Shown here: positions 30,948 through 50,651 of the stretch, one piece after another
Numbering within the stretch: position 1 is the stretch's first letter
How the letters are laid out: every line of letters begins with the position of its first letter
Source of the DNA: Escherichia phage vB_EcoS_SP8
Length of the DNA: 57,585 nt
Sequence record: MT682705.1
Reading direction: 5' to 3' (one strand)
Notes under the pieces: model-generated
What the model was told of the DNA's origin: nothing
The model's database searches: none
Seen by the model: the letters and a program-made list of their open reading frames with translations, nothing else
Translations under genes and position numbers: made by a program

Positions 30948-31021
30948 TTTGCAGGGGGTTAGACCCCTGCCGATCCATCAGTATATACTAGGTGTGTCCT
31001 AATGGATCGTAGGAGAATAAC

Positions 31022-31267: not shown

Positions 31268-33817
31268 ATGCTGGAACTTTTTCCTCAAGAAATTAAACAA
31301 TACGAACAGTGGGCTGTCTGCGGTTTCCATCCAGGTACATCATCAGAAAAACAACCTTATGTATGGGACGATGATTTAGGGGATATGGTCCCACTTCGTA
31401 AAGACGGTAATGATAAGAAACCGTCTAACCTGCATTTACTTATGTCTTTTGAAGATGCTGAACGCTGCATTCGTTATTATAACGAGATTGGCCATAACTT
31501 GCGTTTAGGTTTCTATTTACTTCCAAGTGACCCGTTCTGTTGTATTGACATGGACATTAAAGATACCATGTCTGAAATGGAAAAGAAAGTTGCTGGTGAG
31601 CGATATAAGAAGATTGTTGAATCGTTCCATAGCTATACGGAAATTTCCAGAAGCGGTGATGGGTTGCACACATGGATTTATTCTATCCCTCAAGCTGGTA
31701 AGCGCCGTGATGGTGTGGAAGTGTATTCACAATATCGTTTTATTATCTGTACAGGCGATCACTGGGATGTTACTCCGCGCACTGTGTCTGGTGCTCCAGG
31801 CAGTGAAAGCGAAGGGTATATTGCTAATCTCATTCATCAGCTTATGTCTGAGATGAGTGAGATTAATGAGTCTGATGGCTTCCAAATGCTGGAACTTACT
31901 GAAGAAGATTTTAGTAACGACCCATATGCAATGGAAGATCAGGATGTCTATATTCAGTTGTGTGAACAAGAAAACGGGACATTGTTTAAGCAGCTATGGG
32001 AAGGTCGTTGGAGAGCTGAAGAAGTTGATACTTCTATCGGTGAACGCTGTTTCCCTTCTCAGTCTGAAGCAGAATTTGCATTAATTGACTTTCTTTGCTT
32101 TAAGAGCAAGTATAATTTCCAGGTAAGACGCCTATTCATGTATTCACCAATGAGTAGTCGTTACGATGATTCCCGTCGTCTGCCTGGTGAAAAAATCAAA
32201 CGTCCGTATCACCTGGATAGAATGATTCGTAACTACCGCTATGATGCCCATGTTAAATCTATGGGACTTATGCAGATAGTTCAGAATAACGTTAATGCAG
32301 CTATAGAGCGCACGGAGAAACTGCGTCAAGCAACTACACCAGAACGCCCACCTGAAGAAGTGTTGACCACAGATGGCAATTACACTGAAGAGCAGGCAGA
32401 CGGTTTGGCTTGGCCTCCGGGCTTTATGGGCGAGGTTGCGCGTAACATGTATAAAGCGAGCTTGTTGCCTATTAAAGACATTAGTATTCTGTCTGCTCTT
32501 GCTTTATTTAGTGGTATGTGCGGTAAGGCGTGGAACACAGTCACACGAAGTGGTCTGAATAACTACTTTGTATTAATTGCACGTTCTGGTATTGGTAAAG
32601 AAGCGTTTCGCTCTAACATTGAAACTATTCTTTCTCAAGTATCCAATTATGGCGGCCAGGACGGTCAGCAGATATTTGGTATTGAACGTGTTTTGGATAC
32701 AAGTACCTATGCGTCTGATGCTGCATTGCGCAAGGATGTCATAATGGATACGTCCGTTATGTCTTGTGGCTCATCCATCAACTATAAGACTGAAGTCGGT
32801 GCATTTTTCCGTAACGGTAAGATGGAAGTTGGTAAAGCTAAAGACATTATGGATGAAATGCTTTCCCTTTATGACAAGGGGCATTTCTATGCTTTCTCTG
32901 GTGGTTCAAAACACTCTAGTAAAGATAATACGACTGCTGGAGGTAAGGTTAAGGCGTATAGTTTTGCAGGTGAAACAACACCAGATGAATTTTATGGCAA
33001 CGTAGACGACCGTATGATGTCGAGTGGCTTCATGTCCCGCATTATCGCATGGGAATGTACAGCTAACCGCCCATTGATGAATAAGAGTATGCTCCTGGAA
33101 TATCCAGAAGCAATTCTGCGCACTATTGGAGCTATCTATAAACAAGCTGTGCGCATTATGTCAGGGACTGCCCCATGCTATGTTGAAATGGAAGCAGAGG
33201 TACACGAAGCATTTGATAATCTTGATAATGTTGTTGCGAAGTTCCTGAACAGCGGCAATGATGGTGAGCAGGTACAAGACGAAGTAATTCGTCAGATGTA
33301 CACAAGGAAGGCGTTGAAGGTATTGCGTATCGCTTCTCTTCTTGCTGTAGCGGATAACAGTGAGCGTCCTGTTGTTACTATGGAACATTATCGTTGGGCT
33401 GAGTCATTTATTGATCAGGGTAACGAGCGTTTCTTAGAGAAGCGTAATAGTGGGCAGATTGGGTCTACAGATAGTACCAGTCGTGAGAAAATAATGCTCA
33501 ACTCTATCAAGAAGTTCTTGGATGGGGAAGTTAAAGCTGGTGTGTATAAACGGTTCCCAATGTTTAAGGGCGCGTTTATTGTCACACGGAGTGACTTATG
33601 TACTTATTGTAGACAATTTAAAGCGTTCAAGCAGACAAGAAATGACAACATCTTGCAGGTCATAGACAACACAATTTATGGTTTGATGTCTATGGAAGTT
33701 CTTACTGAAATGAGGCCAATGGACTTTTCAAGTTTCTTCGGTGCAGAGTTTACACCACCGAGGATGAAGTGTTATTTGGTAGACATTGAGAGAATGAACG
33801 AAGTTATTAAGTTATAA
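31268..33817 (+). CDS. DNA primase-polymerase (AEP-like) fused to a helicase-like C-terminal domain
   Basis: 849-aa ORF; N-terminal CCIDMDIKD (DxD) and SGDGLHTW motifs typical of archaeo-eukaryotic primase folds; Walker A-like SGIGKE in the C-terminal half. Confidence 0.55.
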   Translation: MLELFPQEIKQYEQWAVCGFHPGTSSEKQPYVWDDDLGDMVPLRKDGNDKKPSNLHLLMSFEDAERCIRYYNEIGHNLRLGFYLLPSDPFCCIDMDIKDTMSEMEKKVAGERYKKIVESFHSYTEISRSGDGLHTWIYSIPQAGKRRDGVEVYSQYRFIICTGDHWDVTPRTVSGAPGSESEGYIANLIHQLMSEMSEINESDGFQMLELTEEDFSNDPYAMEDQDVYIQLCEQENGTLFKQLWEGRWRAEEVDTSIGERCFPSQSEAEFALIDFLCFKSKYNFQVRRLFMYSPMSSRYDDSRRLPGEKIKRPYHLDRMIRNYRYDAHVKSMGLMQIVQNNVNAAIERTEKLRQATTPERPPEEVLTTDGNYTEEQADGLAWPPGFMGEVARNMYKASLLPIKDISILSALALFSGMCGKAWNTVTRSGLNNYFVLIARSGIGKEAFRSNIETILSQVSNYGGQDGQQIFGIERVLDTSTYASDAALRKDVIMDTSVMSCGSSINYKTEVGAFFRNGKMEVGKAKDIMDEMLSLYDKGHFYAFSGGSKHSSKDNTTAGGKVKAYSFAGETTPDEFYGNVDDRMMSSGFMSRIIAWECTANRPLMNKSMLLEYPEAILRTIGAIYKQAVRIMSGTAPCYVEMEAEVHEAFDNLDNVVAKFLNSGNDGEQVQDEVIRQMYTRKALKVLRIASLLAVADNSERPVVTMEHYRWAESFIDQGNERFLEKRNSGQIGSTDSTSREKIMLNSIKKFLDGEVKAGVYKRFPMFKGAFIVTRSDLCTYCRQFKAFKQTRNDNILQVIDNTIYGLMSMEVLTEMRPMDFSSFFGAEFTPPRMKCYLVDIERMNEVIKL

Positions 33818-35479: not shown

Positions 35480-35655
35480 GTAAGAAAACCGATATCCGCA
35501 ATCGCAATGCCGCTATCACTGCTTATCGTATGCGGGAGAAAGGTTTTACTTATAACCACATTGCTGAACATCTTGGTAAGAAACCGCATCAAATTAAATC
35601 GCTCATTTTGTTAGGTGAGCGCCTGGAATCTTTAAATGAGGGGACGACACAATGA
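35476..35655 (+). CDS. small putative helix-turn-helix DNA-binding protein
   Basis: 59-codon ORF not in the ORF track; ATG overlaps upstream stop; segment FTYNHIAEHLGKKPHQIKSLIL looks HTH-like. Confidence 0.3.
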   Translation: MSKKTDIRNRNAAITAYRMREKGFTYNHIAEHLGKKPHQIKSLILLGERLESLNEGTTQ

Positions 35656-35921
35656 ATGTAACTGTACGCCAACCTAATAAGAAAGAGAAGGACCTAATGA
35701 TCGGCTTTACTATGCCCGCTCCACTTGTGCATATCGGAGCGTTATTACGCTGCACAAACGCGAACACGCGGCGCTTTACGCATAACTCTGTGTATAGAGT
35801 ACATCGCACTGTACATAACGCCCGTAGCGGCTTAGCTTTGCCTGTTACACGAGACGATTATGGTGAAGAAGTGGTGTGTACGTCTTTATCTTTCGCATTA
35901 GGTCATTGGAAGAAAGTATAG
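35652..35921 (+). CDS. hypothetical protein
   Basis: 89-aa ORF; ATGA overlap with upstream ORF. Confidence 0.35.
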   Translation: MNVTVRQPNKKEKDLMIGFTMPAPLVHIGALLRCTNANTRRFTHNSVYRVHRTVHNARSGLALPVTRDDYGEEVVCTSLSFALGHWKKV

Positions 35922-35927
35922 TGTATT

Positions 35928-36404
35928 ATGGATTGGAATCACTATTTTCAATATAGATGCGGAAAACTTTATTGGAAAATCAATAAAGGACGTTCTAAGG
36001 TAGGTGATGAAGCTGGATATATTCATAAATCACATGGATATATTTGTATCACACTTAATCGTAAGGAGTATTATGCCCACCGCATCATTTGGGAAATGCA
36101 CTATGGGCCAATACCAGAAGGAATGGAAATCGATCATATCTGGCATGATCGTCAAGATAACCGCATTGAGAATTTACGGTTAGTGAGTAAATCAGGTAAT
36201 GCTAGAAATCAGTCTAAGTTTAAGAATAATAGTAGTGGCGTGACTGGTGTCAGTTTTGACAAATCAGTTGGTAAATGGATAGTTCAAATTGGAGTAAATG
36301 GAATTAATAAAACTCTTGGATGTTTCGAAGAGTTTAATAAAGCTGTTGAAATTCGTCGTAAAGCAGAGATTAAATACGGTTATCATGTAAATCATGGTAA
36401 GTAA
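35928..36404 (+). CDS. HNH homing endonuclease with AP2-like DNA-binding domain
   Basis: EIDHIWHDRQDNRIENLRLVSKSGNARN (HNH) followed by SGVTGVSF...KWIVQIGVNG...FEEFNKAVEIRRKAEIKYGY (AP2-like); AT-rich. Confidence 0.6.
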   Translation: MDWNHYFQYRCGKLYWKINKGRSKVGDEAGYIHKSHGYICITLNRKEYYAHRIIWEMHYGPIPEGMEIDHIWHDRQDNRIENLRLVSKSGNARNQSKFKNNSSGVTGVSFDKSVGKWIVQIGVNGINKTLGCFEEFNKAVEIRRKAEIKYGYHVNHGK

Positions 36405-36583
36405 TAGCTGACGAATTCGTGTATTGTAATCAAACACGTAAACAGGTTAACATTATTTGCGAGAGTGGTTGGTAGATTACCCCTTTTCGAAGGCTGTCTC
36501 TCGCTGACATGTTATTATCTATTATATGCTTCGCTTTCTGGGGTACTTGTGTACCCCCTATTTTTTGGATGGAGATTTATAAC

Positions 36584-37045
36584 ATGGGAGCTAATCCTCG
36601 TACCAAAGGTCAAACAGGTGAGCGTGAAATTTGTAAATTCTTTAATGATATCTACGAAGAAGTTTACGCCGCTCTTGGAATGACTTATCCGGAAAAGCCC
36701 ATAGCACAACGTAACCAGAATCAGAGTGCTGTAGGTGGTTGTGATATCACAAATACCTGTTTCTATGCGGTGGAAGTTAAACGCCAGGAACAGTTATCAA
36801 TTAATACATGGTGGGCACAGTGTGTTAAGAGTGCATTAGAAGCAGACAAGTTTCCAGTTCTTATGTACCGTCAGAATAAAAAGCCCTGGCGCGTAGTCCT
36901 GTATATGAACCCTATCATGCTTTTCGCGGATGAAGCGAAACATCACAAAGAAGATCCCCCAAGATGTGAAATATCCCTGGAAGATTTTCGGATAATCTTT
37001 AAATCACATGCTTATGAATATATCAAGAGGAATGGTCACGCTTAG
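36584..37045 (+). CDS. putative PD-(D/E)xK family nuclease
   Basis: GQTGERE ... GGCDITN ... FYAVEVKRQE arrangement resembles E / D / E-x-K catalytic residues; start at ATG (MGANPR). Confidence 0.35.
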   Translation: MGANPRTKGQTGEREICKFFNDIYEEVYAALGMTYPEKPIAQRNQNQSAVGGCDITNTCFYAVEVKRQEQLSINTWWAQCVKSALEADKFPVLMYRQNKKPWRVVLYMNPIMLFADEAKHHKEDPPRCEISLEDFRIIFKSHAYEYIKRNGHA

Positions 37046-37193
37046 GAGGTGCAAGAAGTGAGTTGTGAGGAAAGTCCTGTTCAATGGTGTGAACGTATGC
37101 AACGGGAAGCTGAAACTGGTGAGGACGCTTATCGTTATTATTAGTTAAAGCAACAGTGGGAACAACGTCTGTCTGATAAAGAGAGTGAAAAAC

Positions 37194-37703
37194 ATGACTA
37201 ACAAAGACGATATGTCTAATATCATCAAAGATGTAACTGTCAAAGGTACTATTGCGGTTCAAGATCGCGCTGTGCAACAGCTAATCGTGGAGCTCCTTAC
37301 GGATACTGCTCAAATGCCGCGATTTGCCACTCCAGGTTCTATGTGCTTTGATATCTATGCGGATGAACCAGAGCCCGTAACTATCTATGCAGGTCGTGCG
37401 TATACGTTCAGCACGGGTATTAAGCTACAGATCCCTCATGGTTACGGCCTGGAAGTTTATTCGCGTAGCGGTCACGGGTTTAAACACGGGATTCGTTTAG
37501 GTAACTGTACTGGTATCATTGATCATGATTACCGTGATGAGTTGAAGATACGTCTACATAACGACTCTTGTGAACCTTATACAGTCCAGGTTGGCGAACG
37601 TATTGCACAGGCGCGTCTTGTGGAGTTGGTTCGTACGCGTATTGTTTCTGGTATTGTAGAAGAAACAGGCCGCGGAGGTTTTGGTTCTACTGGTAAGTTG
37701 TAA
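37194..37703 (+). CDS. dut: dUTP diphosphatase (dUTPase)
   Basis: trimeric dUTPase motifs: SRSG, GIIDHDYRDE, GERIAQ, C-terminal RGGFGSTG. Confidence 0.75.
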   Translation: MTNKDDMSNIIKDVTVKGTIAVQDRAVQQLIVELLTDTAQMPRFATPGSMCFDIYADEPEPVTIYAGRAYTFSTGIKLQIPHGYGLEVYSRSGHGFKHGIRLGNCTGIIDHDYRDELKIRLHNDSCEPYTVQVGERIAQARLVELVRTRIVSGIVEETGRGGFGSTGKL

Positions 37704-39790: not shown

Positions 39791-40537
39791 ATGCAATTTA
39801 CAACTACCGCTCAAGCAGTTTTGGACACTGGTGTCAAGATGCTTGTGTATGGTGAATCCGGTATGGGTAAGACCATGCTTACAGCAACTCTTCCAAGACC
39901 GTTGCTGATTTCTGCGGAGTCTGGGCTTTTATCTTTAACACCGAATAACATTGCTCGTGTATTTGGTGAAAACAGACCAGATATCTGCTACGATATTCCA
40001 ACCATCACGGTTGAAAATATCCAGGATGTAGAGCAGGCTTATGTTTGGGCGACTAACCCTGCAAACAATCCTGTAGGTGAAGATGGTTTACCGCGCTTTC
40101 AGTCTCTTGCGCTGGATTCACTTACTGAGATTGCTGAAAAGTGCCTTAACAATGCGAAGCGTACTGTGAAAGATCCGCGTCAGGCTTATGGGGATCTTAT
40201 TGAGAAGATGCAAACTTTAGTTCGCGCTTTTCGAGATATCCCTGGACTTAACGTGTACATGGCAGCTAAAATGTCCCGTAACAAGGACGAGTTGACAGGT
40301 ATTACGTCTTACGGTCCTTCTATGCCTGGTGCAAAATTAGGTCCAGAATTACCATACTTTTTTGACGAAGTGTTCAAAATTAGTGTTGGTAAAGACCAAA
40401 ATACTCAAGCAGATTTTCGTTATCTGCTGACCAGACCAGATCTGTCAAATGTATGTAAAGATCGTTCTGGTTCGTTAGAACAGATGGAATATCCACATCT
40501 TGGTGCAATCATTAACAAAATCAAAGGGGTACAATAA
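39791..40537 (+). CDS. RecA-like ATPase (Sak4-like recombination protein)
   Basis: Walker A YGESGMGKT near N-terminus; about 248 aa; followed by SSB-like and nuclease genes. Confidence 0.45.
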   Translation: MQFTTTAQAVLDTGVKMLVYGESGMGKTMLTATLPRPLLISAESGLLSLTPNNIARVFGENRPDICYDIPTITVENIQDVEQAYVWATNPANNPVGEDGLPRFQSLALDSLTEIAEKCLNNAKRTVKDPRQAYGDLIEKMQTLVRAFRDIPGLNVYMAAKMSRNKDELTGITSYGPSMPGAKLGPELPYFFDEVFKISVGKDQNTQADFRYLLTRPDLSNVCKDRSGSLEQMEYPHLGAIINKIKGVQ

Positions 40538-41457
40538 TGGCCGGTTTAGGAATGCAATTTAACGCTGGACAACACGCAGAGCGTCAACACAATAGCTTGA
40601 TGCCAGCTGGTTGGTATGTTGTTCAGATTGTAAACTCTGAGATCAAACCGACTAAAACTCCAGGCGGTGCGCGTCTGAATCTTCAGTTTAAGATTATGCA
40701 GGGTGATTTTGCTGGTCGTGTAATGTTTGGCGGTTACAACGTCAAAAACGCAAACCCTGTCGCTGTACAGATTGCAATGGAAGAACTGGCAGAGCTGTCC
40801 CGTGCTGTTAAAGTTCCAGTCTGGAACGATACTGAACAACTGCACGGTATTCCGTTCAACCTGAAAGTGAAAGTTCGTCAGCAACCTGGCTATGAGCCAA
40901 ACAACGAACCTCAGATTTATCAAGCAATTGATAATATGGAAGGTGTTGTATACGCAACTAAAGCGGATATGGCTAACCTGCCTAAATCAACTCCAGCAGC
41001 GGCAGCACAGTCTCCAGCATTTGGTGGCGGTGCGTTCGGTGGTACTCAGCAGCCACAGCAGCAACCGCAGCAGGGTTTCCCGGGCGCATTTGGGCAGCAG
41101 CCGCAGCAACAGCAGCAGCAACCTCAGACTCAGGGGTTCCAGCAGCAACAACAGCAACAACAGCCGCAGCAGCCGGTACAGCAACAGCAGCAACCGCAGC
41201 AGTCTGGAACAGTTGATTTTAACAGTGCGGCACAATCTCAACCGTGGGCTAATGGTGCGCAGAAGCAGACTCAGCAGCAACCTAACTGGGCAACTCAGCA
41301 GGTACAGCCTGGAGCAGAGCAACCGCAAACTCAAGCTCAGAATACTGGTACTGCTAACCATGCAGAACCTGAAGTCCAGGATGATATCGCTAAAGCAGCT
41401 CAGACCAAGACTCCACCGTGGAAACGTTCCACTGAAGGCGATGACGCTGCACAGTAA
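40537..41457 (+). CDS. putative ssDNA-binding protein with Gln/Pro-rich tail
   Basis: position after Sak4-like gene; internal 50-residue Q/P-rich low-complexity tract; function inferred from context only. Confidence 0.3.
   Translation: MAGLGMQFNAGQHAERQHNSLMPAGWYVVQIVNSEIKPTKTPGGARLNLQFKIMQGDFAGRVMFGGYNVKNANPVAVQIAMEELAELSRAVKVPVWNDTEQLHGIPFNLKVKVRQQPGYEPNNEPQIYQAIDNMEGVVYATKADMANLPKSTPAAAAQSPAFGGGAFGGTQQPQQQPQQGFPGAFGQQPQQQQQQPQTQGFQQQQQQQQPQQPVQQQQQPQQSGTVDFNSAAQSQPWANGAQKQTQQQPNWATQQVQPGAEQPQTQAQNTGTANHAEPEVQDDIAKAAQTKTPPWKRSTEGDDAAQ
41044..41202 (+). repeat. CAG/CAA-rich simple sequence tract encoding poly-Gln/Pro
   Basis: cagcagccacagcagcaaccgcagcag... read directly. Confidence 0.6.
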
Positions 41458-46390: not shown

Positions 46391-46411
46391 AAGGGGCATT
46401 TACTGCCCCTT
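46391..46411 (+). terminator. rho-independent terminator
   Basis: stem AAGGGGCA / TGCCCCTT with 5-nt loop followed by TGTT. Confidence 0.55.
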
Positions 46412-46434
46412 TGTTATCTTACCCCGAGGTTCAA

Positions 46435-47199
46435 ATGTTTGCACAAGCCATTATCGCCCACCACTGGGCTCAAGCCAAATTTGGAAATCATATGAAAATT
46501 ATTAATACTCAGGAACCTGAGAAGTTAGTTCGTGAACGTGGTATTCTTGATGTACATTCCATTTTTCATACCATTCAAGGCGAAGGCCCGTTTTGTGGTC
46601 AACCTGCCGTGTTTGTTCGTTTAGCTGGTTGTAACCTGCAATGCCCAGGATGTGATACAAACTATACGTCCAATCGTAAGAAGATGAGTCATAACGATAT
46701 CTGGCAAGAGATTGTCCGTGTTACTGGCGAAGCTAAGACTGAGTTAGTTGTTATCACTGGTGGCGAACCTTTCCGCCAACCTGAGGTTGCTAATTTTATC
46801 AATTACCTTATTGATATGAAAGGTTATCGCGTACAGGTTGAAACTAACGGAACTATGCCTATCCCGCGTGAACTCAACTATAACTGTGTGGTAGTATGTA
46901 GTCCTAAGGCGGCAAAGATACACCCTAGCGTTTCAGCTCGAGCAGATGCTTTCAAATATGTAATGAAAAGTGGAAACGTCAACGAGGAAGATGGGTTGCC
47001 GTTGCAGGCACTGGATCACCGTGCAACACCATTTATCGCACGTCCGCCTGTACACTTTAAAGGTAAAATTTATCTTCAACCTATGGATGAACAGGACGAC
47101 GATGCTAATAAAGCAAACGCTCAAGCTGTCGTTAAATACGCAATGAAGCACAATTATATCGTGCAATTGCAGATTCACAAATATTTAGGTGTAGAGTGA
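46435..47199 (+). CDS. queE: 7-carboxy-7-deazaguanine synthase (QueE, radical SAM)
   Basis: radical-SAM cluster motif CNLQCPGC (Cx3Cx2C) after FHTIQGEGPFCGQP; start at ATG (MFAQAI) preceded by GAGGT. Confidence 0.7.
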   Translation: MFAQAIIAHHWAQAKFGNHMKIINTQEPEKLVRERGILDVHSIFHTIQGEGPFCGQPAVFVRLAGCNLQCPGCDTNYTSNRKKMSHNDIWQEIVRVTGEAKTELVVITGGEPFRQPEVANFINYLIDMKGYRVQVETNGTMPIPRELNYNCVVVCSPKAAKIHPSVSARADAFKYVMKSGNVNEEDGLPLQALDHRATPFIARPPVHFKGKIYLQPMDEQDDDANKANAQAVVKYAMKHNYIVQLQIHKYLGVE

Positions 47200-47311
47200 A
47201 GTTATACATATTTAAAAACGCATGGATGATTGCTGTGGCTAATGATCATTATGCTGGTGACGGTCAACGCGCTAAAAGACACGGTATGTTCAACTAATAA
47301 GGTAAATCGTT

Positions 47312-48070
47312 ATGAATAAGCATATTCAATTACTCGGTCAAATTGTTCCACAAAATGTGTTAAACCAGTGTCTGTTTGATGAAGACGGATTTGTAAAACA
47401 TTATGTGACCACAGTTTCTCAGGCGGCGTCCAATACAGCTCTTGCATCTGTAATTCGAGAAGGGTATTTAGTAGATGTCTTGAACGATATCAGTCCCGAA
47501 CTCACTGTCTTTGTTGAAGGTATGGATGGACATGATCTTATGAACTTAAAGACAGTCTACAATACGCATGTAACGCCTCCACGTAACGCACTTTACAAAT
47601 GGCGCATTAGTGCTTCTGTTAGCGGAACACAGAAAGTGGAAGAAGTGGAAGAGATGGTTAAAAATCATAAAACTTCTTCTGAAAAATTAGCTGGTATCAT
47701 GGAAGATGTACTTTCGAGCGTGTTTAAAGTTGATCGTAACAAAGAAGGCGAGCCGGAACTATTCGTTAATGACGCGTTTGTTAATAAGGATTGCATTCAG
47801 GAGATTAAAGCTCCACGTCCGAATAAATATATGCGCAAAATCAAAAGTTTTGAATCACATGACATTAACGGTAGCCCGATTGAAATTGATGTGTGGGTTG
47901 ACGTGTACGATGTAATTAAAGCATTCAATGTAACCAGTGGACCTATGCAACACGCACTGAAGAAAGTGTTGTGTGCTGGTGAGCGCGGTCATAAAGACTT
48001 ACTGGAAGACCTCAACGATATTATTGCATCCGTTGAGCGTGAAATTGAAATGGTTAAAGAAGGTAAATAA
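47312..48070 (+). CDS. hypothetical protein embedded in the deazaguanine cluster
   Basis: 252-aa ORF between queE and gat-queC; no motif recognised. Confidence 0.45.
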   Translation: MNKHIQLLGQIVPQNVLNQCLFDEDGFVKHYVTTVSQAASNTALASVIREGYLVDVLNDISPELTVFVEGMDGHDLMNLKTVYNTHVTPPRNALYKWRISASVSGTQKVEEVEEMVKNHKTSSEKLAGIMEDVLSSVFKVDRNKEGEPELFVNDAFVNKDCIQEIKAPRPNKYMRKIKSFESHDINGSPIEIDVWVDVYDVIKAFNVTSGPMQHALKKVLCAGERGHKDLLEDLNDIIASVEREIEMVKEGK

Positions 48071-48071
48071 T

Positions 48072-49487
48072 ATGTGCTCCATCTTTGGTGTTATTACTAA
48101 TGGTCAACCTGAACGTGAAATTATTCGTAACGATGTCAGTGATCTTATTAAAGCTAGTATCAGCCGTGGTCGGGATGGTCTTGGTGTACGCTTTACGCAT
48201 GGTGACCACAGTATACACCCGCAACGTATCGTTCGTGTCGGTAAGGGAACAACTCAGGAACGTCTTGTTAAAATTGAGCGCATTGCGTCCCGTGCTGGGG
48301 ACATTGGTAGCTTCACAATGATTGGTAACGCTCGTGCTGAACCGACTACAGAGTGGGTCGTTGACAAGAACGAGTGGGACCAGCAACCGTATCATATGGA
48401 TGGTTGGACTATTGTTCATAACGGTACTATTGCGAACGATAAAGACCTTCGTACCTATGCACTACAGACTAAAATTGATAGTGCTGCGATTGTTGAACAG
48501 TTAGCAGAATGTACACTTTCAGCGGATGAAATGTGTTTGTCTGACTTCAATTACCTGTACAGTGTATTTCATGAAGTTATTCGCAAATTGAAAGGTAGCT
48601 TCGCAATTCTTGCAACACATGATTCCTTTCCAGGATGTGTGTTTGCAGCATGTAATTATCGTCCAATTTGGATTGGTAAGACTCAGACTGGTATGTATTT
48701 TGCCAGCCAAGAAGATATGCTTCCAACCCGTGCCATTAAACAGATGCTGAAACCTTACACCTGCAATGTGGTCACATCTACTGATGTATGCAATGAAGTT
48801 GATCTTATTCCAAATAAGCAGACTCAACGCGCGTTAGTTGTCGCCAGTGGTGGTATGGACAGTACGGTTGCAGCTCAGATGTGTAAGTCCAATGGTTTAG
48901 ATGTCACTTTAATTAACTTCCAGTATGGTTGTCGTGCAGAAACTAATGAGCTGTATGCTATTCGTAAGATTGCGGAGGTGATGGGGGTTCCATTAATTGA
49001 ATTTCCAATCCCGATTTATGATAAGAAAGATAGTCCATTATTTGATCAAGATGCTACAATTGCTGGCGGTGAAGAAGGAGCTGAGTTCGCGCATGAATGG
49101 GTTCCAGCTCGTAACCTTGTGATGCTTTCTGTTGCTACTGCATACGCAGAAGCTAACGGTTTCGACTATATTGTTCTTGGTAACAACTTAGAAGAAGCTG
49201 GAGCCTATCCGGACAACGAGCCTGAGTTCATTAATCGCTTTAATCAAGTGTTACCGTTCGCTGTAGGCGACGGTAAGCGCGTTGAAGTGCTCATGCCAGT
49301 AGGTAACTTAATGAAGCACGAAATTGTCGCTACAGGTCTGCGTTTAGGGGCCCCGTTGGAGCACACCTGGAGCTGTTACCGTAACGGTGATCTGCATTGC
49401 GGTACTTGTGGCCCTTGCATGATGCGTCGGACTGCGTTTAATATTAATAACGCACAAGAAGTTATTAAATACGAAAGCGAGGAATAA
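48072..49487 (+). CDS. gat-queC: glutamine amidotransferase-QueC fusion (Gat-QueC)
   Basis: N-terminus MCSIFGV (Cys2 nucleophile of class II amidotransferases, as in AsnB); PP-loop SGGMDS; C-terminal zinc motif WSCYRNGDLHCGTCGPC; track ORF starts upstream at a non-ATG codon. Confidence 0.8.
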   Translation: MCSIFGVITNGQPEREIIRNDVSDLIKASISRGRDGLGVRFTHGDHSIHPQRIVRVGKGTTQERLVKIERIASRAGDIGSFTMIGNARAEPTTEWVVDKNEWDQQPYHMDGWTIVHNGTIANDKDLRTYALQTKIDSAAIVEQLAECTLSADEMCLSDFNYLYSVFHEVIRKLKGSFAILATHDSFPGCVFAACNYRPIWIGKTQTGMYFASQEDMLPTRAIKQMLKPYTCNVVTSTDVCNEVDLIPNKQTQRALVVASGGMDSTVAAQMCKSNGLDVTLINFQYGCRAETNELYAIRKIAEVMGVPLIEFPIPIYDKKDSPLFDQDATIAGGEEGAEFAHEWVPARNLVMLSVATAYAEANGFDYIVLGNNLEEAGAYPDNEPEFINRFNQVLPFAVGDGKRVEVLMPVGNLMKHEIVATGLRLGAPLEHTWSCYRNGDLHCGTCGPCMMRRTAFNINNAQEVIKYESEE

Positions 49488-49488
49488 A

Positions 49489-50010
49489 ATGGGTTACACT
49501 GTCATTCGTTCACATGAAATTTGCGCTGGGCATCGTGTCGTAGGGCATGAAAGTAAGTGTCGTCACCTTCACGGTCACAATTATAAGTTTCACTTTAAGG
49601 TTGCGCCGAAGCGCGTAGAGAGCGAAAACTACATCCCGGGCTCGAAAGGTTTCTCGTCTGAAGGTAAACTGGATGATGTTGGTCGCGTTATTGACTTTAG
49701 TGTGGTTAAAACTACGCTTTGCCAGTGGTTGGAAGATAATTGGGATCATAAATTCCTGCATTGGAGTCGTGATAACTTGATTGACGCTTTGAAAATTGCA
49801 GCAAGTCGCCCGAGTTGTCCTCTGGAACATGAAGACCATGAGCATTTCTTAGGCTCATTGGTAGCTTTGCCATTCAACCCAACTGCGGAAAACTTAGCTG
49901 CGTATATGGTTGACGTGATTGGTCCACAACTGCTTGACCAATATGGTGTTGAATTGGTAGAATGCACCATTGAAGAAACGTCCAAATGCCATGTTAACTA
50001 TTGCAAATAA
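49489..50010 (+). CDS. queD: 6-carboxytetrahydropterin synthase (QueD)
   Basis: CRHLHGH zinc-binding motif typical of QueD/PTPS; about 173 aa; RBS GAGGAA. Confidence 0.7.
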   Translation: MGYTVIRSHEICAGHRVVGHESKCRHLHGHNYKFHFKVAPKRVESENYIPGSKGFSSEGKLDDVGRVIDFSVVKTTLCQWLEDNWDHKFLHWSRDNLIDALKIAASRPSCPLEHEDHEHFLGSLVALPFNPTAENLAAYMVDVIGPQLLDQYGVELVECTIEETSKCHVNYCK

Positions 50011-50036
50011 TTGACCACACAAGGAAACTGCAAACC

Positions 50037-50651
50037 ATGAATGAATTTACAAAGATGACAAACCGAGCAGAAATTTCACACAGTATTGAAAAGATTTTAA
50101 AGTTGATTGAAGGTGGCGATGAATTGCGTGAAGGTTTAGTAGAAACTCCAGATCGTGTAGCTAAGGCTTATGCTACATGGTTCGGGGGTTATTCTGTCGA
50201 TATCGCATCCCTGTTCAAGACATTTGAAGATGGTGGGGAAGACTGCGATGAAATGGTCATCGTGCGTGATATCCCTGTATATAGTCATTGTGAGCATCAC
50301 ATGGCTCCTATTATTGGTCATGCGGTGGTTGGATATGTTCCAAATGGAAAAATTGTCGGTCTCAGCAAGTTATCTCGGGTAGTTGATGCTTTCGCTCGAC
50401 GTTTGCAAGTCCAAGAACGTCTAACTAACCAGATTGCGGACGCTATCCGTGACCATTTAGAGCCGAAAGCTGTGTGCGTCTACATCGATGCAAAACATAT
50501 GTGCATGGAGTCGCGCGGTATTAAACAGGTATGCGGTAGCTCAACTATCACTAAGGCATTCCGCGGGCGTACTGCATTGGGCGATGGTGTGTTACCGGAC
50601 GTAACTGGTGACACATGGCGTCGGGAATTTCTTGAAGCGTGTAAAAAGTAA
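50037..50651 (+). CDS. folE: GTP cyclohydrolase I (FolE)
   Basis: YSHCEHHMAPI motif and overall collinearity with FolE; start at ATG (MNEFTKM) preceded by AAGGAAA. Confidence 0.75.
   Translation: MNEFTKMTNRAEISHSIEKILKLIEGGDELREGLVETPDRVAKAYATWFGGYSVDIASLFKTFEDGGEDCDEMVIVRDIPVYSHCEHHMAPIIGHAVVGYVPNGKIVGLSKLSRVVDAFARRLQVQERLTNQIADAIRDHLEPKAVCVYIDAKHMCMESRGIKQVCGSSTITKAFRGRTALGDGVLPDVTGDTWRREFLEACKK

What the first reader, a model, noticed from the sequence alone, without database searches (positions are those of the whole stretch)
35928..37045. HNH-AP2 homing endonuclease followed by a PD-(D/E)xK nuclease
The HNH core is fused to an AP2-like DNA-binding domain, an architecture typical of phage homing endonucleases, and is AT-rich. 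The next gene encodes a small protein whose residue arrangement suggests a PD-(D/E)xK nuclease, possibly a Holliday-junction-resolvase-like enzyme. Two nucleases in tandem just upstream of dUTPase may be a mobile insertion plus a replication or recombination nuclease.
Basis: partly seen in the sequence, partly recalled or inferred. Interest (0 to 1): 0.4.

Follow-up and report, generated by a model that had tools for sequence, protein, structure and literature searches.

The report
Mobile HNH-AP2 endonuclease beside Hjc-like nuclease
In this 9g-like coliphage, a selfish homing-endonuclease gene has recently inserted just upstream of a conserved phage nuclease that resembles archaeal Holliday-junction resolvases; both are ordinary, already-known kinds of phage gene.

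Summary

**Host genome.** The window is a Nonagvirus, a phage 9g-like member of the Queuovirinae.

**ORF1 (35928-36404, 158 aa).**
- It is an intact HNH_3 nuclease (Pfam 1.1e-23; D69, H70, N91 and N94 invariant).
- Its GC content is 34.6% against 43.3% for the window.
- The site is empty in 13 related loci aligned or read here; 17 related GenBank/RefSeq records all show the same two-piece match.
- One Logan contig (L003) carries the same gene at the same site.
- Window and L003 differ at 4 of 565 bases in the cassette but at 58 of 948 bases in the flanks (p = 2e-8). This indicates recent horizontal spread.
- The cassette includes about 80 bp of the upstream gene's 3' end, recoded mostly at synonymous positions.

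**ORF2 (true start 36584, end 37045, 153 aa).**
- It belongs to Pfam PDDEXK_15.
- E13, D54, E64 and K66 are invariant in 50 homologues.
- The database label "RusA-like" is not supported.
- Resolvase activity is inferred, not shown.

**Verdict.** A new member of known kinds; low interest.

The parts
35652..35921 (+). Upstream gene of unknown function (89 aa, PHROG 20894). It was found only in Nonagvirus and close relatives. The homing endonuclease gene (HEG) sits 6 nt after its stop codon.
   Evidence: 20 phage records; 88-94% aa identity within Nonagvirus
35843..35921 (+). Recoded 3' end of the upstream gene that travels with the HEG. It is about 63% identical at the DNA level to HEG-less alleles, against 95-99% further upstream. 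Of codons 64-87, 20 of 24 differ from phage 9g, and 14 of those changes are synonymous. The tract also contains the GGAAGAAAG Shine-Dalgarno-like sequence for the HEG. I infer that it is a co-converted foreign allele and probably the site of target immunity.
   Evidence: the tract was not found in INPHARED, IMG/VR or the JGI metagenomes
35922..36407 (+). Segment present here and in L003 but absent from HEG-less relatives. In those relatives it replaces two extra codons, the stop codon and about 10 nt of spacer. It has no terminal inverted repeats and no target-site duplication.
35928..36404 (+). Free-standing HNH(N)-AP2 homing endonuclease gene (158 aa, 34.6% GC)
36069..36206 (+). HNH_3 beta-beta-alpha-metal nuclease core (aa 48-93). 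The invariant residues are D69-H70 (36132-36137), N91 (36198-36200) and N94 (36207-36209).
36228..36377 (+). AP2-type DNA-binding domain: three-stranded sheet plus helix, aa ~101-150
36408..36583 (+). Intergenic region, 96-100% identical in every 30-bp block across 11 HEG-less Nonagvirus loci (two blocks reach 100%). Homology with the HEG-less genomes resumes exactly at 36408 (CTGACGAATTCG).
   Evidence: no Rfam match; RNA fold z-score -1.6, not significant
36540..36567 (+). Terminator-like hairpin GGGGTAC-ttgt-GTACCCC followed by a T-run, 17 nt upstream of the ORF2 start. HdK1 annotates it as a terminator.
36584..37045 (+). PDDEXK_15 nuclease (153 aa), Hjc-like and conserved in all Nonagvirus relatives. 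The catalytic candidates are E13 (36620-36622), D54 (36743-36745), E64 (36773-36775) and K66 (36779-36781).
37194..37703 (+). dUTPase, given as downstream context only

Best explanation
The interval holds two unrelated nuclease genes.

(1) 35928-36404 is a free-standing homing endonuclease gene (HEG) of the phage HNH(N)-AP2 family.
- It has an I-HmuI-type beta-beta-alpha-metal nuclease and a C-terminal AP2 DNA-binding domain.
- It sits at the end of an early or middle transcription unit. It lies directly behind the stop codon of a small Nonagvirus gene and ahead of a terminator-like hairpin.
- Inferred mechanism: in a mixed infection the enzyme nicks or cuts the HEG-less allele near this site. 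Recombinational repair from the HEG-carrying genome then copies in the gene together with about 80 bp of the recoded 3' end of the upstream gene.
- That recoded tract also supplies the HEG's ribosome-binding site. It probably also makes the carrier immune to cleavage.
- Shown here: the domain architecture, intact catalytic residues, presence/absence at a fixed site, and movement of a near-identical cassette between different backbones.
- Inferred: the cleavage itself, the position of the target, and the immunity.

(2) 36584-37045 is a resident, vertically inherited core gene of the replication/recombination module.
- The module order is primase ... PDDEXK_15, dUTPase, DUF7173, RNase H, ligase, AAA_24/Sak4-like ATPase, DUF669, helicase.
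- The gene encodes a PD-(D/E)xK nuclease of Pfam family PDDEXK_15.
- Its predicted fold and motifs (KGxxxERE helix, D, xEVK strand) are closest to archaeal Hjc.
- It most likely cuts branched (four-way) DNA that arises from recombination-dependent replication, before packaging. This role is inferred from fold and context only.

The single confidence value of 0.75 combines three separate estimates: about 0.85 that ORF1 is a recently mobile homing endonuclease gene, about 0.85 that ORF2 is an active PD-(D/E)xK nuclease, and about 0.55 that ORF2 is specifically a junction resolvase.
For: HEG:
- Pfam HNH_3 1.1e-23.
- D69, H70, N91 and N94 are invariant in 56 homologues.
- 39 of 56 homologues hit Pfam AP2.
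- The family occurs in 3646 phage records; the best match is only 60% identical and sits elsewhere in HdK1.
- The site is empty in L001, L002, L007-L015, FritzHoffmann and PD328. All 17 GenBank/RefSeq records show the same two-piece match.
- The same gene lies at the same site in L003.
- Window against L003: 4 of 565 mismatches in 35843-36407 against 58 of 948 in the flanks, Fisher p = 2e-8. The right flank of L003 is 99.8% identical to the HEG-less L007.
- GC is 34.6% against 43.3%.
- The recoded tract has 20 of 24 codons changed, 14 of them synonymously.
- There are no inverted or direct terminal repeats.

Nuclease:
- PF24608 at 52.7 bits against a cut-off of 27; all 120 listed homologues (of 440) carry it.
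- K8, G9, E13, R14, D54, E64 and K66 are invariant.
- The model has pLDDT 89.3.
- The top 15 Foldseek hits are all Hjc, with probability 0.82-1.0.
- hhalign against P. furiosus Hjc gives E = 0.004 and aligns KGxxxERE, IEVK and PVL..WR.
- The gene is conserved at 98-100% aa identity in all Nonagvirus relatives.
- A recombination module lies downstream.
Against: HEG:
- No cleavage data exist.
- Only two carriers are known, the window and L003.
- The donor lineage of the recoded tract was not found in any collection searched.
- The right-hand limit of co-conversion cannot be seen, because 36408-36540 is nearly invariant in all genomes.

Nuclease:
- No PDB or Pfam Hjc match at the sequence level. 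This holds for the protein, for the profile, and for any of the 50 members.
- Foldseek TM-scores are low, 0.29-0.55.
- hhalign probability is only 8%.
- Many PD-(D/E)xK enzymes with similar cores are restriction or repair nucleases (ranks 4-14).
- No paper on PDDEXK_15 or PF24608 was found.
Confidence: 0.75

Rival explanations
1. ORF2 is a PD-(D/E)xK DNase with a role other than junction resolution. Candidates include degradation of unmodified host DNA (the phage DNA itself is presumably protected by 7-deazaguanine modification), a restriction-like or nicking activity, or a flap/repair nuclease.
For: - No sequence-level link to Hjc was found in Pfam or PDB.
- The window encodes a 7-deazaguanine pathway: Gat-QueC, QueD, FolE and a QueE-like protein.
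- The family has a long, invariant QRNQNQSAVGG loop that Hjc lacks.
Against: - Hjc and Hje are the top hits by two independent structure-comparison methods.
- The Hjc-specific N-terminal KGxxxERE motif and the IEVK strand align.
- The protein is small (153 aa), with no extra recognition domain.
- The gene lies in a replication/recombination module that has no other recognisable resolvase in the ORFs scanned.
- The family occurs in many phage groups. Whether they all modify their DNA was not tested.
Confidence: 0.3
2. The HNH gene is an ancestral resident that most Nonagvirus genomes have lost by deletion, or a domesticated accessory nuclease. On this view it is not a currently mobile homing element.
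For: - Only two carriers are known.
- Cleavage has not been demonstrated.
- HNH-AP2 genes are reported to decay after insertion (PMC2248197, read).
Against: - The cassette is 99.3% identical between two backbones that differ by 5-7% in both flanks.
- Each backbone is closer to HEG-less genomes than to the other carrier.
- GC content is 8.7 points below the genome average.
- The adjoining 80 bp is a foreign allele saturated with synonymous changes.
- All catalytic residues are intact.
- Relatives 60-67% identical sit at other sites in sister genomes.
Confidence: 0.07
3. The 486-bp insertion arrived by transposition or by illegitimate 'moron' recombination, not by endonuclease-driven homing.
For: The right junction is abrupt. 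The empty site contains a short direct repeat, GAATTC-TGAY-GAATTC, that could support illegitimate recombination.
Against: - There is no transposase, no terminal inverted repeat and no target-site duplication.
- The left junction is a homologous but diverged tract of the same gene. This is what gene conversion produces and what transposition does not.
- The insert encodes a complete homing-type nuclease.
Confidence: 0.03

Closest known systems
Free-standing HNH(N)-AP2 homing endonucleases of phages. Examples are the genes described in Xanthomonas phages Xp10/OP1/Xop411, T1, Rtp, T5, RB16 and RB43 (PMC2248197; Magnani et al. 2004, as cited there and in PMC10448857). The structural prototype of the nuclease half is I-HmuI (PDB 1u3e).
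   Same: - An N-terminal HNH_3 core with the D-H...N...N motif and no Cys4 zinc site.
- The conserved HR(I/L)xW, DNR and NLR boxes.
- A C-terminal AP2 domain.
- About 160 aa, low GC, intergenic and sporadic among close relatives.
   Different: - The closest sequenced relative in GenBank phages is only 60% identical and sits at another locus.
- This insertion site, between the PHROG 20894 gene and the PDDEXK_15 gene of Nonagvirus, is not occupied in any related GenBank/RefSeq record matched.
- I-HmuI is intron-encoded and uses a different C-terminal DNA-binding module.
- The target and the cut type (nick or double-strand break) are unknown here.
T4 free-standing homing endonucleases that cut at a distance and co-convert flanking markers (SegG, SegE, MobE). 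I know these from the literature; the SegG reference is cited in PMC10448857.
   Same: A free-standing gene lies between conserved genes. A tract of donor polymorphisms next to the gene is inherited with it.
   Different: Seg enzymes are GIY-YIG nucleases, not HNH-AP2. Here co-conversion is inferred from two natural genomes and was not measured in crosses.
Archaeal Holliday junction resolvases Hjc/Hje (PDB 1gef, 1ob8, 2wcw, 1hh1) and the Hjc-type resolvase of Thermus phage 15-6 (7bgs)
   Same: - A predicted PD-(D/E)xK core with E (helix 1), D, and ExK (strand 3).
- The KGxxxERE N-terminal motif, the IEVK strand and the PVL...WR strands align.
- These are the best structural matches.
   Different: - No Pfam Hjc hit.
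- About 30 residues longer, with an invariant QRNQNQSAVGG loop before the catalytic Asp and an extra C-terminal helix.
- Identity is 14-22%.
- Dimerisation and junction cleavage are untested.
RusA (lambdoid-phage/E. coli resolvase). This is the name given to the family by PHROG 244 and in RefSeq phage annotation.
   Same: Only the presumed biological role, as a small phage-encoded junction nuclease.
   Different: - No Pfam RusA match for any of the 50 family members.
- The predicted fold is PD-(D/E)xK. To my knowledge RusA has an unrelated fold.
- The label is a misnomer.

Membership tests
HNH(N)-AP2 free-standing homing endonuclease | HNH_3 / beta-beta-alpha-metal nuclease core with conserved D-H ... 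N ... N | tested here: met
HNH(N)-AP2 free-standing homing endonuclease | C-terminal AP2 DNA-binding domain | tested here: met
HNH(N)-AP2 free-standing homing endonuclease | Free-standing gene (not inside an intron or intein), sporadically present at a fixed site among close relatives | tested here: met
   It is a separate ORF between two genes. The site is empty in 13 related loci examined here, and 17 GenBank/RefSeq records show the same two-piece match. It is occupied in the window and in L003.
HNH(N)-AP2 free-standing homing endonuclease | Evidence of horizontal movement with co-conversion of flanking sequence | tested here: met
   4 of 565 mismatches in the cassette against 58 of 948 in the flanks, p = 2e-8. 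The two backbones are each closer to HEG-less genomes than to each other. The recoded 79-bp tract is shared by both carriers.
HNH(N)-AP2 free-standing homing endonuclease | Site-specific cleavage of the HEG-less allele and biased inheritance in mixed infection | not testable with these tools
   This needs enzyme assays and phage crosses.
Pfam PF24608 PDDEXK_15 | Score above the family gathering threshold | tested here: met
   52.7 bits against 27. All 50 aligned homologues match.
PD-(D/E)xK nuclease superfamily | alpha-beta-beta-beta-alpha-beta core with conserved E / D / (D/E)xK residues | tested here: met
Hjc-type Holliday junction resolvase | Closest structural and sequence relationship to Hjc | tested here: inconclusive
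Hjc-type Holliday junction resolvase | Homodimer that makes paired nicks in four-way junctions | not testable with these tools
   This needs biochemistry.
RusA resolvase (the label used by PHROG 244 and RefSeq) | Match to the RusA family model or fold | tested here: not met

The most novel reading that the evidence does not exclude
PDDEXK_15 may be an experimentally uncharacterised, Hjc-derived family of Holliday-junction resolvases. It is widespread in ~55-62 kb tailed phages of Proteobacteria (211 phage records) and is currently mislabelled 'RusA-like'. Its invariant QRNQNQSAVGG loop could be a family-specific DNA-contact element. Because many carriers, including Nonagvirus and Seuratvirus, are groups known to carry 7-deazaguanine-modified DNA, the enzyme might be adapted to work on such DNA. 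Separately, the HEG's target may lie in the recoded last 80 bp of the upstream gene. That would give a natural pair of cleavable and immune alleles for an HNH-AP2 enzyme acting on modified DNA.
Probability: 0.4. Interest if true: 0.35.

Novelty: new member of a known kind. Interest (0 to 1): 0.2.

Why it matters
This matters mainly for annotation and housekeeping.

- It documents a clean natural example of a free-standing HNH-AP2 homing gene caught in two different Nonagvirus backbones. The cassette has a sharply bounded co-converted tract, which predicts where the enzyme cuts.
- It shows that the conserved neighbour is an Hjc-like PD-(D/E)xK nuclease and not a RusA homologue. That corrects a label propagated through PHROG and RefSeq.
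- It flags PDDEXK_15 as an untested candidate resolvase family.

None of this overturns current understanding. HNH-AP2 homing genes and phage junction nucleases are both well known.

Tried and rejected
- **PDB sequence searches for ORF2.** Neither the single sequence nor the 50-sequence profile gave a meaningful hit. The relationship to Hjc could only be reached through predicted structure and one hhalign comparison.
- **Pfam scan of all 50 PDDEXK_15 homologues for a bridging Hjc, RecU or RusA hit.** None was found.
- **Searches for the recoded 80-bp tract.** These were meant to find the donor lineage or HEG-less immune alleles.
  - An exact 30-mer in IMG/VR gave 0 hits.
  - A codon-degenerate pattern in JGI metagenomes gave 0 hits.
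  - blastn in 'distant' mode against INPHARED gave 0 hits.
- **Rfam and RNA folding of the conserved intergenic region.** There was no family match, and the fold z-score of -1.6 is not significant. I therefore make no RNA claim.
- **Repeat search for transposon-like ends around the insert.** Only short chance repeats turned up.
- **tblastn of the HNH protein against the whole window.** No second copy or remnant was found.
- **Literature search for PDDEXK_15 / PF24608.** No paper was found.
- **Considered and rejected: the HNH as a terminase-associated packaging HNH.** It lies in the replication module, far from the terminase, and close relatives lack it.
- **Not used:** the third homologue search and the representative-library search. 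They would not have changed the verdict.

Full report
**Context.** The window is a near-complete genome of a Nonagvirus (phage 9g-like, Queuovirinae).
- The 2.4 kb around the finding is 93-97% identical to HdK1, 9g, JenP1/P2, JenK1, BRET and others.
- The window carries the 7-deazaguanine gene set typical of the group: a QueE-like radical SAM protein, Gat-QueC, QueD and FolE at 46411-50651.
- The finding lies in the replication/recombination module. The order is primase (31268-33817), small genes, the two ORFs in question, dUTPase, DUF7173, RNase H, ligase, AAA_24 ATPase, DUF669 and helicase.

**Observation.**
- ORF1 (35928-36404, 158 aa) hits Pfam HNH_3 at 1.1e-23 and PHROG 99 at 1.6e-66.
- Its own Pfam AP2 hit is sub-threshold at E = 0.025.
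- ORF2 ends at 37045, but its real start is the ATG at 36584, giving 153 aa. This is the start annotated in 9g (gp20) and HdK1. It is preceded by GGAG and by a terminator-like hairpin at 36540-36557 plus a T-run.
- The 36509 start is only the longest mechanical ORF.
- ORF2 hits PF24608 PDDEXK_15 at 52.7 bits against a cut-off of 27.
- The HNH gene is AT-rich as claimed: 34.6% GC against 43.3%, in the lowest 1.4% of windows of its size.

**ORF1 is an intact HNH(N)-AP2 enzyme.**
- In an alignment of 56 homologues at 46-67% identity, H51, R52, W55, G60, D69, H70, R84, N91, N94, G107, A139 and G157 are invariant. These include the D-H...N...N residues of the I-HmuI-type active site.
- The AlphaFold model is confident, with pLDDT 93.9.
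- 39 of the 56 homologues reach Pfam AP2 on their own.
- The HNN-AP2 architecture is a described class of free-standing phage endonucleases (PMC2248197; PMC10448857).
- The family is very large, with 3646 phage records. The nearest GenBank phage copy is only 60% identical and sits at a different locus of HdK1.
- The window holds no second copy.

**ORF1 is a mobile insertion.**
- Homology to 9g and HdK1 stops at 35842 and resumes at 36408.
- Thirteen related loci have the site empty, with about 195 bp between the upstream gene and the PDDEXK gene. They are L001, L002, L007-L015, FritzHoffmann and PD328.
- All 17 related GenBank/RefSeq records give the same two-piece match.
- One Logan contig, L003 from ERR14033266, has the same gene at 98.7% aa identity in the same place.
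- Window and L003 are different backbones. Their left flanks are 92.6% identical and their right flanks 95.0%. Each is closer to HEG-less genomes than to the other, and the right flank of L003 is 99.8% identical to the HEG-less L007.
- Across 35843-36407, however, they differ at only 4 of 565 positions, against 58 of 948 in the flanks (Fisher p = 2e-8).
- No inverted or direct terminal repeats flank the insert.
- Relatives 66% identical occupy another site in sister genomes. In L004-L006 the gene sits inside a partly duplicated hairpin equivalent to window 30955-30969, which is empty here.
- This is the pattern expected of homing endonuclease genes, not of transposons or vertical inheritance with loss.

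**The recoded tract.**
- The last 79 bp of the upstream gene (35843-35921) still encode a homologous C-terminus. They are only about 63% identical to the HEG-less alleles, against 95-99% further upstream.
- Of codons 64-87, 20 of 24 differ from 9g, and 14 of those changes are synonymous.
- The tract is shared by the window and L003. The switch of haplotype lies at about 35833-35842.
- The tract also contains the Shine-Dalgarno-like GGAAGAAAG for the HNH gene.
- I read it as a piece of a divergent donor allele that is co-converted with the gene. I also read it as the likely location of the enzyme's target, with these substitutions making carriers immune. Both readings are inferences.
- The donor lineage was not found in IMG/VR, JGI metagenomes or INPHARED.
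- On the right, 36408-36540 is almost invariant in all genomes, so the extent of conversion there cannot be seen.

**ORF2 is a conserved PD-(D/E)xK nuclease that looks like Hjc.**
- Of 440 homologues found, all 120 listed carry PF24608.
- In 50 of them, down to 42% identity, K8, G9, E13, R14, R43, Q45, Q47, A49, V50, G51, G52, D54, E64, K66, W76 and W77 are invariant.
- The model (pLDDT 89.3) has the canonical core. E13 is in helix 1, D54 lies before strand 2/3, and E64-V-K66 is in strand 61-67.
- The first 15 Foldseek hits are all Hjc (probability 0.82-1.0), although TM-scores are low at 0.29-0.55.
- A profile-sequence comparison with P. furiosus Hjc used a sequence verified as 1gef. It gives E = 0.004 and lines up KGxxxERE, IEVK and PVL...WR.
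- Against membership: there is no PDB or Pfam Hjc hit by sequence, and the hhalign probability is only 8%.
- There is no support at all for the 'RusA-like' name used by PHROG 244 and RefSeq.
- The family occurs in 211 phage records from several groups. No paper mentions it.
- The Vid5 paper lists a 'putative endonuclease' (ORF54) at the corresponding place in its gene order, and the Vid5 homologue P0022 is named 'endonuclease' in NCBI.
- The phage encodes a Sak4-like AAA_24 ATPase and DUF669 nearby, and no other resolvase was recognised among the ORFs scanned. Junction resolution before packaging is therefore the most likely role. It remains an inference, at about 55%. The main rival is a different DNase role, at about 30%.

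**Verdict.**
- The HNH gene is a new member, at a new insertion site, of the well-known phage HNH-AP2 homing endonucleases.
- The neighbour is a member of an existing but uncharacterised Pfam family that is best described as Hjc-like.
- The two genes are functionally unrelated neighbours. A terminator-like hairpin lies between them.
- Interest is low. The useful by-products are a predicted target region for the endonuclease, a corrected family label, and a testable candidate resolvase.

Noticed in passing
window 37058-37201 (stop at 37142-37144): The small ORF between the PDDEXK gene and the dUTPase is 47 aa in HdK1 and L003 and is Pfam DUF8272 in L003. In the window it carries a CAG->TAG change, which truncates it to 28 codons. 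9g, HdK1 and L003 all have CAG. This could be a real amber mutation or a sequencing error.
   Followed up: partly
window 36408-36583: The 176-bp intergenic region upstream of the PDDEXK gene is 96-100% identical in every 30-bp block across 11 Nonagvirus loci, with two blocks at 100%. That is at least as conserved as the flanking coding DNA. It ends in a terminator-like hairpin only 17 nt before the start codon. I found no Rfam family, no significant RNA fold (z = -1.6) and no good sigma-70 promoter match. The reason for the conservation is unexplained.
   Followed up: partly
window 30955-30969; L004 2979-3485: Sister Nonagvirus contigs (L004-L006) carry a 66%-identical HNH-AP2 gene (P0125) between the 137-aa gene and the 78-aa gene upstream of the primase. 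It is inserted inside a GC-rich hairpin that is partly duplicated on both sides. The window has this site empty. No diverged flank is seen there, unlike at the site studied.
   Followed up: partly
ORF1 aa 153-157 (window 36384-36398): The HNH-AP2 family has a nearly invariant C-terminal motif, (F/Y)HxNHG(K), after the AP2 helix (H153, N155 and H156 nearly invariant, G157 invariant). Neither Pfam model covers it, and its role is unknown.
   Followed up: no
ORF2 aa 42-52 (window 36707-36739): The most conserved stretch of PDDEXK_15 is an invariant loop, QRNQNQSAVGG, just before the catalytic Asp. It is longer than the corresponding Hjc segment. It is also the least confidently modelled internal part of the protein (block pLDDT 76).
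   Followed up: no
L016 1247-1582; L020 3864 onward; L012 4771-5136: The neighbourhood is a hotspot for variable genes in relatives. L016 has an unrelated 111-aa ORF between the upstream-gene homologue and the PDDEXK gene, and a MazG-like pyrophosphatase in place of the dUTPase. FritzHoffmann has an annotated homing endonuclease after RNase H. L012 has a distant HNH (37% identity) about 1.8 kb downstream.
   Followed up: no
window 39791-41457: An AAA_24 ATPase followed by a DUF669 protein lies downstream of the ligase. I recognise this pairing as a Sak4-type single-strand-annealing/recombination module. It is relevant context for a resolvase but was not examined further.
   Followed up: no
public annotation (PHROG 244; RefSeq NC_024146 gp20 and others): The family is named 'RusA-like Holliday junction resolvase' in PHROGs and RefSeq, although it has no detectable RusA similarity and is a PD-(D/E)xK protein. 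The label appears to be a propagated misnomer.
   Followed up: yes
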